From the human T2T-CHM13v2.0 reference genome, Homo sapiens, in the NCBI RefSeq assembly GCF_009914755.1, contig NC_060926.1: a stretch of 64,000 nucleotides of DNA. The stretch is one strand, 5' to 3'. Positions 13,037 to 15,852 of this stretch are shown one piece after another. Position 1 is the first letter of the stretch; every line of letters starts with the position of its first letter. The notes below the pieces were generated by a model. It was not told the origin of the DNA. It saw only the letters and a program-made list of their open reading frames with translations, and did no database searches. The position numbers and the translations under genes are program-made.

Positions 13037-13430
13037 GAGACAAGAGTTTCACTCTTATCACCCAGGCTGGAGTGCAATGGCACGATCTCTGCCACTGCAA
13101 CCTCTGCCTCCTGGGTTCAACCGATTCTCCTGCCTCAGCCTCCCAGGTAAATGGAATTACAGGTGCTTGCCACCACGCCCAGCTAATTTTGTATTTTTAG
13201 TAAAGACGGGGTTTCACCATTGTAGCCAGGCTGGTCTCGAACTCCTGACCTCAGGAGATCCACCCACCTCAGCCTCCCAAAGTGCTCGGATTACAGGTGT
13301 TAGCCACTGTGCTCGGCCATTTTTTAAAATATTTCTAAAGGGTTTGTAAACACATACACACAGTGTGTACCCCAAAAAGCCTAATATATATATTATCTGG
13401 TCCTTTATAGAAAAGTTTGCAGACCCTTGA
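12925..13430. mobile_element. MER58-like hAT element split by an Alu and a (TA)n tract
   Basis: ...caaactacagc...; 3' end tatctggtcctttatagaaaagtttgcagaccc. Confidence 0.6.
12988..13035 (+). repeat. (TA)n joined to poly(T) of an Alu
   Basis: Direct reading. Confidence 0.95.
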
Positions 13431-13951
13431 TGGAATCCACTCTCCACACTTTGCACAAGAAAATGGTGAATTAACCTGTTCAATGTCAATTACTTATCAA
13501 AGTTAGAGTGCGAGACCTGGATTCAAAATGATTTTTTTGCTTTTTGTATGAACTGGGGTCCAAATTTTTTCAAAGTACACGTAAAAAATTTAGATATATG
13601 AAGTTTGCATTAGCAATTCCATTTATTCTAAGAAGGATTAAAGCAAACTTTTTTTTTAAAAAGCGGTCCCCTAAAAAAAAGTATGGGCTTTGTAAGCAAA
13701 AAACAGAAATTCAAAAACCACCTAGTCCCATAATACTAACTTTTTTATAGACTCTTAGAAAGTTATCTAACCTTTTTTGAGCCTCTGTAGTCTTAACTAT
13801 AAAATGAGGGTAATAGTACCTTTACGACAGGTTTAAAAAGATTGCGAGGATCATATAACTGGCGTTCAAAAAACTGACTTTTCCTTTTCCTCCTAACCCA
13901 GGGTCATAGTGGTCACACTTTAGGCAATCAATTAGATTGGATGACATGATA

Positions 13952-14470
13952 TCTTGTACTCCTAACTTCAAGTCATCCTTCCGTCTTAGCCTCCCAAAGT
14001 GCTGGGATTACAGGTGTGAGCGCCTGACCTTTTGCCATCTCTTTGCATCGATCTTTGCTTTTGTTTCTCTCTGTGTGTCTCCTTGCCTCTCTCCCTGTCA
14101 CTGTCTCTCTCTCTCCCCTGCCTCCCTCTTGGTCTCTTTTTTTTGCTGTCTCTTTCTGATGACCTTGTTCCCATCTCTGTGCGTGTGTGGCTCTCTCCCT
14201 GTCCATCTCTTACCATCTCTGCCTTCCTCTCCCAGGTCTTAAACGAATATTTCCACAATGTCTGTGAACTGGACCTGGTGTTCAACTTCTACAAGGTAGG
14301 CTCCTGGTGAAGAGGAGGCTGAAGGAGCCCGAGGAGTGGGACGTGGGGGACCCGTGGTGCACTAGCCACCCGGAGCCTCTGCTGAGGTCTGTGTCCCAGC
14401 TCGAGGGGCATCAGAGCCCCAGCTTCCAGGGTCCGGGCCAGCATCCCGGGGGGCCTCGTCTCACCCACGT
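13952..14470 (+). pseudogene. Unprocessed AP2S1 gene fragment: exon 4 (14236-14295) with flanking intron sequence, inside PNPT1 intron 1, antisense to PNPT1
   Basis: cctctcccag|GTCTTAAACGAATAT...TTCTACAAG|gtaggc = 60 nt, VLNEYFHNVCELDLVFNFYK (AP-2 sigma residues 90-109); CT-rich then GC-rich flanks unlike the host intron; outer boundaries estimated. Confidence 0.88.
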
Positions 14471-14795
14471 CAACTCGTTATTCCTAGGTGGAATGTTTCC
14501 CACTTAAGAGCCCAGTGGTCCCGGAAAGTAAAGAGATCGGAAGTCAGGTGGACGGACAGAGTCGGATGGAGCAAAGAAGCCCGGCACACACCAACAGAGA
14601 GAACGACATAGCGCGGGAAGGAGGGTCCGAGGAGACACATTCCAAACCCGGAAAGGGAAATTTGGAATTTAGGTTTAGGGTAAGGAGAGATTAAATAGAG
14701 CTGGGATACCGGGTTTCTACCCTGGGAGATGAATACGCTCAAGCTGGCTGGACAAGACACCTTATGACAATACAGTGAACGCACGTCACTCCTTA

Positions 14796-15000
<205 letters not shown>

Positions 15001-15015
15001 CACTCCGCAGACCGT

Positions 15016-15025
15016 GGGGCGGAGC
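15016..15025 (+). promoter_or_regulatory. GC box (Sp/KLF)
   Basis: GGGGCGGAGC. Confidence 0.7.
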
Positions 15026-15032
15026 CTGATGG

Positions 15033-15044
15033 AGTTTCGTTTCC
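15033..15044 (-). promoter_or_regulatory. ISRE / IRF-binding element
   Basis: AGTTTCGTTTCC (GGAAACGAAACT on - strand); PNPT1 is an established type I interferon-inducible gene. Confidence 0.8.
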
Positions 15045-15852
15045 GCGGTGCCCGAGGGACGCCGGGGTAACGGAAACCTTGGCCACCTTCTACGAAGACT
15101 AGAGAGGGTCAAACCTATCAGAACGCGATTATGTTGCAAACGATCTTTGTCTTTATGTGCCAACGAAAGGCAATTAGATAAATAAGGTTTTTGTGTGTGT
15201 ACTATCGTAATTTAAAGGAGAAGTCCTAGAATAATGTAAATGTTTAATATGCAGAGTAAATTTATATTTACTTTTAATACTAGAAGTCATAGAACAACAC
15301 ATTATTATTATTTGGATCTGTGAACTAAGAATTAGAATTTGGGTGGTGGGCCTTGGAAAGAGATCTCCTTCTCCCCTTCTCCGCCCTGGTTTTTATTTTA
15401 AAAATTTCACATAGCAGATATGTTACTACAGCGATTTGTGTTAACCAATTTACAGTAAATTCATTTTTCATCGACTTGTAATTTTAGAAATCTTTATTGT
15501 CACTTCTGATTCATTTTCATTTCCATTGCTAATAATTAGCAATTTATATTTCTGTCCCTTTTGGTCGAACTCTTAAATGCAAAATGCCAGCTACTGTTTG
15601 AAGTAAATATTTTGTAAAATGAAAAAAAAAAGTTTTTGGGATTTGAAAAATTTTTAGAGAATGGATAAATTTCTTCCACCCCATTAATCCATTCTGTTAG
15701 AAATTCTTTATGTTTTTCCTTGAATGAACCAATGGGCATTTTCATATTATGATGTAAATTTTTTGTGTAAGGTGATAACCCCCTTACCCCAAAGAAAACC
15801 AAACAACAAAAACCCAACACTCATTCAAACAGTTTTAAGAATTAAAAACGTT

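What the first reader, a model, noticed from the sequence alone, without database searches (positions are those of the whole stretch)
13952..14470. A captured genomic piece of AP2S1 (exon 4 plus introns) inside PNPT1 intron 1
Seen: a 60-nt exon with intact acceptor and donor encoding VLNEYFHNVCELDLVFNFYK with no substitutions relative to the AP-2 sigma sequence I recall, flanked by intron-like CT-rich and GC-rich DNA, starting abruptly inside an Alu fragment, with no poly(A) and no obvious TSD. Established: AP2S1 is on another chromosome; processed pseudogenes lack introns. Inference: a recent ~0.5 kb templated insertion (DNA or pre-mRNA patch during break repair). It adds CpG-rich DNA about 330 bp from the exon 1 donor, offers a ready-made exon to antisense transcripts, and could confound AP2S1 exon 4 read mapping.
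Basis: partly seen in the sequence, partly recalled or inferred. Interest (0 to 1): 0.75.

Follow-up and report, generated by a model that had tools for sequence, protein, structure and literature searches.

The report
AP2S1 gene fragment patched into PNPT1 intron
A 515-base unspliced piece of the chromosome-19 gene AP2S1 (part of intron 3, exon 4, most of intron 4) sits in the first intron of PNPT1 on chromosome 2, most likely as an old scar of DNA break repair with no sign of a function.

Summary
Window 13952-14466 (+) matches one other place in this genome, chr19 49664922-49664403 (-), with 9 substitutions in 514 aligned bases, one 6-bp deletion and one extra T. Pfam exon hits and splice junctions show the chr19 locus is AP2S1. 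The copy holds the last 289 nt of intron 3, all of exon 4 (14236-14295, 60/60 identical) and the first 171 of 191 nt of intron 4.

chr19 is the donor: its Alu is complete there and cut at the chr2 breakpoint. There is no target-site duplication, poly(A), poly(A) signal or visible microhomology, and the flanks are unique to chr2. The best fit is a class-2 templated sequence insertion, meaning a fragment captured during end-joining repair. DNA versus pre-mRNA template is undecided.

- The 1.75% divergence points to an age of millions of years, not a very recent event.
- The insert is GC-rich but CpG-poor (observed/expected 0.34).
- The unchanged exon is expected by chance (P = 0.33), so it shows no constraint.

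It is a new member of a known kind. The practical point is a 127-bp stretch identical to AP2S1 exon 4 and its splice sites.

The parts
13952..14466 (+). Whole inserted block: a copy of AP2S1 (chr19 49664922-49664403, minus strand), antisense to PNPT1
   Evidence: Only long non-self match in the genome. 9 substitutions in 514 columns plus 2 indels. It is the only long high-identity block (521 columns, 96.9%) between the window and 26 kb of chr19; the other HSPs listed in the output are under 100 bp or at most 83% identical.
13952..14029 (+). Truncated Alu piece (5' end of an Alu, antisense), copied from AP2S1 intron 3. It carries a 6-bp deletion relative to the donor.
   Evidence: In chr19 the Alu continues about 230 bp upstream of the breakpoint to its poly-T end. 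A profile of 71 Alu hits shows the deleted hexamer is ancestral.
14030..14235 (+). Unique CT-rich 3' part of AP2S1 intron 3, with the polypyrimidine tract and cag acceptor
   Evidence: Aligned to the donor with 2 substitutions (14127, 14202) and one extra T (14137). The annotation supplied with the finding places a RefSeq 'silencer' at 14168-14227, inside this part.
14236..14295 (+). AP2S1 exon 4 copy, 60 nt, 20 codons
   Evidence: 60/60 identical to chr19. 20/20 residues match AP-2 sigma 90-109. Pfam PF01217 positions 86-110 score 27.3 bits at both loci.
14296..14466 (+). First 171 of 191 nt of AP2S1 intron 4 (69% G+C)
   Evidence: In the donor, 20 nt and then exon 5 follow the breakpoint. 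4 substitutions (14330, 14337, 14344, 14447).
13951..13952 (.). Left junction
   Evidence: Window ...CATGATA|TCTTGT against donor ...GGCTGG|TCTTGC. No shared base across the junction.
14466..14467 (.). Right junction
   Evidence: Window CTCACCC|ACGTCA against donor CTCACCC|CAGGGT. No shared base, no TSD, no A-tail.
14797..14978 (-). PNPT1 exon 1 (context). Its donor is 330 bp from the insert's right end.
   Evidence: Annotation supplied with the finding. The ATG at 14957 and the GT donor at 14796-14795 were read.
14214..14303 (-). Candidate 90-nt cryptic exon on the PNPT1-sense strand, made of antisense AP2S1 sequence (hypothetical)
   Evidence: A pyrimidine-rich tract with CAG|G (AG at 14305-14304) and ATG|GTAAGA (GT at 14213-14212) were read. 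It is not among the RefSeq exons listed for PNPT1.

Best explanation
A double-strand break in the germline of a human ancestor, about 0.5 kb downstream of the PNPT1 transcription start at the edge of its CpG island, was repaired by end joining. The repair captured a free copy, about 520 bp long, of AP2S1 intron 3 / exon 4 / intron 4. This is a class-2 (L1-endonuclease-independent) templated sequence insertion.

The donor on chr19 stayed intact. The copy lies antisense to PNPT1 and has since drifted neutrally to 1.75% divergence. It has no demonstrated function.

What is shown: donor identity, direction of copying, single-piece structure, and absence of L1 hallmarks. What is inferred: the break, the end-joining route, the germline timing and the neutrality. 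Whether the captured molecule was a DNA fragment or a cDNA of unspliced pre-mRNA is undecided; I put it near even.
For: Donor and identity: one long match in the genome, on chr19, with 9 substitutions in 514 columns.

The chr19 locus is AP2S1:
- Four PF01217 exon hits lie in order on the minus strand.
- Junctions were read. The first hit starts after cag with the residues that follow the initiator Met, so the copied exon is the fourth, assuming one upstream exon (not located here) that supplies the start codon.
- The peptide equals AP-2 sigma 90-109.

Direction: the Alu is complete and the intron runs on into exon 5 in chr19, while both are cut in chr2.

Not L1-mediated: no TSD of 5 bp or more, A/T runs of at most 2, no poly(A) signal on either strand, and target ...GATA|ACGT... 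is not TTTT/A.

Simple event: both flanks are unique to chr2 apart from a repeat tail at 13368-13440. There is no other chr19 piece in the window, no RNA gene inside, and no terminal inverted repeats bounding the block.

Not an assembly chimera: the copy differs from the donor at 11 sites.

Known mechanism: Onozawa & Aplan 2016 (PMC5110952, whole text read) define class 2 by the absence of TSD, poly(A) signal and tract. They list intronic sequences among the templates.
Against: - The empty target site is not available, so the positive end-joining signatures (microdeletion, filler, microhomology) could not be scored. With no target loss assumed, microhomology is 0 bp at both junctions, which is uninformative (chance about 0.56 per junction).
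- No ape or other human assembly could be searched, so the age rests only on 9 substitutions.
- Against an RNA template: the piece is fully unspliced although intron 4 is only 191 nt, and none of the 9 differences is the A-to-G change expected from editing of an Alu-containing pre-mRNA.
- Against a DNA template: nothing specific.
- The experimental inserts cited in the review were 73-414 bp (median 191). At 515 bp this one is above that range.
Confidence: 0.8

Rival explanations
1. Replication-based template switching (FoSTeS/MMBIR): a stalled or broken fork in PNPT1 intron 1 switched to the AP2S1 locus, copied about 520 bp and switched back.
For: It would also give a copy-and-paste insert with an intact donor and no TSD or poly(A). 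The review names template switching and break-induced repair as mechanisms that remain possible.
Against: No microhomology at either junction in the no-deletion model. The event is a single interchromosomal piece with no further rearrangement in the flanks.
Confidence: 0.1
2. L1 ORF2-mediated retrocopy of an unspliced AP2S1 pre-mRNA fragment (class-1 TSI or semi-processed retrocopy) whose hallmarks have decayed.
For: The donor lies wholly inside a transcription unit and is colinear with the pre-mRNA.
Against: No TSD of 5 bp or more, no A or T run longer than 2 at either end, no AATAAA/ATTAAA, and the target is not TTTT/A. At only 1.75% divergence a 10-40 nt A-tail would still be visible.
Confidence: 0.03
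3. Assembly or sequencing artefact (a chimeric join of chr19 reads into chr2).
For: None found.
Against: The copy differs from chr19 by 9 substitutions and 2 indels. A chimera would be identical. The supplied annotation places a RefSeq functional element inside the block at this locus, which suggests (by inference) that it is also present in the assembly on which that element was defined.
Confidence: 0.01
4. The block has been co-opted, either as a regulatory element (silencer) or poison exon of PNPT1, or as an exon of an antisense transcript.
For: A RefSeq 'silencer' at 14168-14227 lies inside it (supplied annotation). Intact AP2S1 splice sites lie on the plus strand. A plausible acceptor-donor pair delimits 90 nt on the PNPT1-sense strand.
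Against: No listed transcript uses either exon. Substitutions are spread as expected by chance: P = 0.33 for an untouched exon and P = 0.48 for an identical run of 127 or more. No conservation data are available.
Confidence: 0.06

Closest known systems
Class-2 templated sequence insertions / TSIPs (Onozawa & Aplan 2016, PMC5110952, read)
   Same: A few hundred bp copied from a distant, transcribed locus. The donor is intact. No TSD, poly(A) signal or tract. Intronic sequence is used as template.
   Different: Polymorphism is unknown here, and the 1.75% divergence suggests an old, probably fixed insertion. It is longer than the experimental range of 73-414 bp. The positive end-joining marks cannot be scored without the empty site.
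LAIR1 / LILRB1 exon-plus-intron inserts in antibody switch regions (Lebedin et al. 2022, PMC9457163, passages seen; the Tan 2016 and Pieper 2017 papers cited there were not read)
   Same: An exon with its flanking introns from chr19 is copied, not cut, into a break in an intron of another gene. The exon keeps working splice sites.
   Different: Those inserts are somatic, occur in B cells at programmed AID/RAG breaks, lie in sense orientation, and are spliced and selected. This one is germline, antisense to its host gene and shows no sign of use.
NUMTs: mitochondrial DNA captured at nuclear breaks (mentioned in PMC5110952)
   Same: Capture of an extrachromosomal fragment by end joining, without TSD or poly(A).
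   Different: The donor here is nuclear.
Processed pseudogenes / class-1 TSIPs (L1-mediated)
   Same: A gene-derived insert at an unrelated locus.
   Different: Introns are retained, and there is no poly(A), no TSD and no L1 endonuclease site.

Membership tests
Class-2 templated sequence insertion | Insert templated from a distant genomic locus, with the donor locus intact (copy, not cut) | tested here: met
   chr19 donor present and continuous through both breakpoints.
Class-2 templated sequence insertion | No target-site duplication of 5 bp or more | tested here: met
   The only shared 5-mer in the 40-nt flanks lies 31 and 34 nt from the junctions.
Class-2 templated sequence insertion | No poly(A) tract and no cryptic poly(A) signal | tested here: met
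   A/T runs of at most 2 at the ends. No AATAAA/ATTAAA on either strand.
Class-2 templated sequence insertion | End-joining marks at the junctions (microdeletion, microhomology, non-templated bases) | tested here: inconclusive
   0 bp microhomology seen. Deletion and filler need the empty allele, which no tool here holds.
Class-2 templated sequence insertion | Derived from reverse-transcribed RNA (proposed for the class) | not testable with these tools
   The donor is inside a transcription unit but the copy is unspliced. No A-to-G differences.
TSIP (polymorphism) | Present in some humans and absent in others | not testable with these tools
   Only one human assembly is held. The Onozawa 2014 and 2015 papers are not held.
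Class-1 TSIP / L1-mediated retrocopy | TSD, poly(A) 10-40 nt, insertion at TTTT/A | tested here: not met
Processed pseudogene | Introns removed | tested here: not met
   284 nt of intron 3 and 171 nt of intron 4 flank the exon.
Segmental duplication | At least 1 kb at 90% identity or more (definition recalled) | tested here: not met
   The block is 515 bp and homology stops sharply at both ends.

The most novel reading that the evidence does not exclude
The patch was reverse-transcribed from a spliceosome-engaged, still unspliced AP2S1 pre-mRNA. Its 3' end lies 3 nt past the CTCAC motif, whose A sits 24 nt before the exon-5 acceptor and is the likely intron-4 branch site. If so, this would be a fixed germline case of nascent RNA templating break repair at a promoter-proximal site in a human ancestor.
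Probability: 0.12. Interest if true: 0.6.

Novelty: new member of a known kind. Interest (0 to 1): 0.3.

Why it matters
It is a clean, datable example of a rare mutation type. One long-read study counted 15 polymorphic templated-insertion candidates beside 8004 insertions in 11 people (PMC8082928, passages seen). Here both breakpoints are resolved, the donor is known, and an intact exon was carried along.

Practically, 127 bp around AP2S1 exon 4 exist twice in the genome. Short reads or capture baits for that exon can therefore cross-map.

The insert also sits 330 bp from the PNPT1 exon 1 donor, where a cryptic exon or a regulatory effect is conceivable but unshown. It does not open a new question.

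Tried and rejected
- Earlier findings of this scan were not open to the session.
- The two primary TSI papers (PMC4419790, PMC4040595) are not held. Their insertion lists and supplements, which might name this locus, were not seen.
- Literature searches, none of which turned up a description of this insert:
  - 'AP2S1' + 'PNPT1': 6 papers, judged unrelated from their titles and abstract openings.
  - 'AP2S1P': 4 papers (3 listed), zebrafish-habituation studies of ap2s1 by title and abstract, not a pseudogene name.
  - 'AP2S1' + 'exon 4' + 'pseudogene': 0 papers.
  - 'templated insertion' + germline + pre-mRNA + double-strand break: 5 papers, judged unrelated from their titles and abstract openings.
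- Rfam on 13800-14600 gave one sub-threshold hit (SNORD94, 15.5 against 60 bits, E = 0.59), so a small-RNA retrocopy is rejected.
- The intron-4 part folds no better than shuffles (z = -0.9).
- No inverted repeats bound the block. Two short inverted near-matches span the junctions, but 15 such pairs occur in 1 kb, so I treat them as chance.
- Reverse direction (chr2 to chr19) is rejected by the truncated Alu and by the exon context.
- Polarising the differences was possible only in the Alu part. The T at 13984 and the 6-bp deletion are derived in chr2, the T at 13982 is derived in chr19, and 13957 is ambiguous.
- One call failed on a frame error of mine and was corrected.

Full report
**What is there.** Reading window 13500-15100 shows a 60-nt open exon at 14236-14295. 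It is preceded by a long CT-rich tract ending in cag and followed by gtaggc. It translates to VLNEYFHNVCELDLVFNFYK, which matches residues 90-109 of PDB chains named AP-2 complex subunit sigma at 20 of 20 positions. My first try failed on an off-by-one frame error.

A DNA search of the window's own genome with 13900-14520 returned the self-match and one other long match. That match is chr19 49664403-49664922 on the minus strand, 97% identical, covering window 13952-14466. The remaining 45 rows were Alu-type matches limited to the first part of the query.

**The donor is AP2S1, and the flanks are its introns.** A Pfam PF01217 (clathrin adaptor small chain) search of the genome found four hits in order on the minus strand of chr19:

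| chr19 coordinates | Profile positions |
|---|---|
| 49671819-977 | 1-53 |
| 49665297-434 | 45-90 |
| 49664571-645 | 86-110 |
| 49664287-388 | 108-141 |

The same search found the chr2 copy with the same score as the third hit, 27.3 bits.

Reading the junctions shows that the first hit begins directly after cag with the residues that follow the initiator Met. Intron 3 is 666 nt and intron 4 is 191 nt, by my arithmetic from the junctions printed.

The block carries three donor parts:
- the last 289 nt of intron 3 (284 nt in the window after a 6-bp deletion and a 1-nt gain),
- exon 4,
- the first 171 nt of intron 4, stopping 20 nt before exon 5.

**Direction and simplicity.**
- In chr19 the left breakpoint lies inside a full-length antisense Alu that continues about 230 bp to its poly-T end. 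In chr2 only the last 78 nt of that Alu are present, next to non-Alu sequence. The right side of chr19 runs on into exon 5. The copy therefore went from chr19 to chr2.
- The chr2 flanks 13368-13951 and 14467-14800 have no other home in the genome, apart from a repeat tail at 13368-13440.
- A local comparison of the whole window with 26 kb of chr19 found no second long, high-identity block.
- Rfam found no RNA gene in the block.

**Junctions.** Left...CATGATA|TCTTGT in the window against ...GGCTGG|TCTTGC in the donor. Right: CTCACCC|ACGTCA against CTCACCC|CAGGGT.
- There is no TSD. The only shared 5-mer of the two 40-nt flanks lies more than 30 nt from the junctions.
- There is no A or T run longer than 2 at either end, and no AATAAA or ATTAAA on either strand.
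- No inverted repeats bound the block.
- If no target bases were lost, microhomology is zero at both junctions. The empty site is needed to be sure.

**Age and selection.** The copies differ by 9 substitutions in 514 columns (1.75%, Poisson 95% interval 0.80-3.3%). Leaving out three CpG sites gives 6 in about 486 (1.2%; 0.45-2.7%).

Against recalled genome-wide divergences (human-chimpanzee about 1.2%, gorilla about 1.6%, orangutan about 3%, macaque about 6.5%), the event falls in the great-ape period. It is not in the recent human past. No ape genome could be searched here.

The untouched exon has P = 0.33 by chance, and a 127-bp identical run has P = 0.48. Nothing therefore indicates constraint.

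In the Alu part, a profile of 71 Alu copies polarises three changes. The T at 13984 and the 6-bp deletion arose in chr2. The T at 13982, a CpG loss, arose in chr19. Site 13957 is ambiguous.

All three CpG-site differences (13982, 14330, 14447) are CpG in chr2 and TpG or CpA in chr19. This would fit a less methylated setting next to the PNPT1 CpG island. That is an inference from three sites.

**Composition.** The insert is 55% G+C with CpG observed/expected 0.34. Its intron-4 part is 69% G+C with 0.40. The chr2 flank towards exon 1 has 0.79 and the exon 1/promoter stretch 0.96. The other flank is 33% G+C. The block therefore landed at the edge of the CpG island, but it is not itself CpG-rich.

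**Mechanism.** Onozawa & Aplan 2016 (PMC5110952, whole text read) separate templated insertions into two classes:
- Class 1 is L1 ORF2-mediated, with a TSD of 5 bp or more, a poly(A) tract, a poly(A) signal and a TTTT/A target.
- Class 2 has none of these marks and shows end-joining marks instead. It is interpreted as a patch at a double-strand break, probably from reverse-transcribed RNA. Other routes are not excluded.

All three negative criteria of class 2 are met here, and the class-1 criteria fail. The positive end-joining marks cannot be scored.

A close analogue in form is the LAIR1 exon with flanking introns copied into antibody switch regions (PMC9457163, passages seen).

DNA versus RNA template stays open. 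The donor lies inside a transcription unit, but the copy is unspliced, and it shows none of the A-to-G changes that editing of an Alu-bearing pre-mRNA might leave.

Template switching during replication is the main rival (0.1). L1 (0.03) and artefact (0.01) are poorly supported. A chimera would be identical to chr19, and this copy differs at 11 sites.

**Consequences.**
- The AP2S1 exon lies antisense to PNPT1, so PNPT1 pre-mRNA never presents it. The supplied gene table lists no plus-strand transcript here.
- On the PNPT1-sense strand the block offers a pyrimidine-rich acceptor (AG at 14305-14304) and an ATG|GTAAGA donor (GT at 14213-14212), delimiting 90 nt. In the PNPT1 reading phase this reaches a TGA after seven codons. 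It is not among the listed PNPT1 exons and remains hypothetical.
- A RefSeq 'silencer' (14168-14227, supplied annotation) lies inside the block. I could not check how it was defined.
- Reads lying wholly inside 14203-14329 cannot be told apart from AP2S1 exon 4.

**Novelty.** Four literature searches found no description of this insert. The two primary TSI papers and their lists are not held. The kind of event is known and rare: 15 polymorphic candidates beside 8004 insertions in 11 genomes (PMC8082928, passages seen).

Verdict: real, correctly spotted, ordinary in kind, and old rather than recent.

Noticed in passing
window 14460-14466; donor chr19 49664403-49664383: The insert ends 20 nt before the AP2S1 exon-5 acceptor, 3 nt past a CTCAC motif whose A lies at -24. 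This is about where the intron-4 branch site is expected. It is a post hoc observation and may be chance.
   Followed up: partly
window 14214-14303, minus strand: On the PNPT1-sense strand, a plausible acceptor and a GTAAGA donor delimit a 90-nt candidate cryptic exon. It would bring a TGA into the PNPT1 frame. It is not in the listed transcripts.
   Followed up: partly
window 13939-13949 / 13968-13978 and 14340-14347 / 14464-14471: Short inverted near-matches (10/11 and 8/8) span the left and right junctions. 15 such pairs occur in this 1 kb, so they are probably chance.
   Followed up: partly
window 13982, 14330, 14447: All three CpG-site differences keep the CpG in the chr2 copy and have lost it in the AP2S1 donor. 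This fits lower germline methylation beside the PNPT1 CpG island.
   Followed up: partly
window 14168-14227: The RefSeq 'silencer' of the supplied annotation lies wholly inside AP2S1-derived sequence. It contains one diagnostic base (14202). Cross-mapping with AP2S1 intron 3 in the underlying assay cannot be excluded.
   Followed up: no
G000 C17:60971198-60971617 and C1:213722491-213722928: Two intronless, stop-free full-length PF01217 matches (207 and 176 bits) elsewhere in the genome. They look like retrocopies of sigma-adaptin genes and are unrelated to this insert.
   Followed up: no
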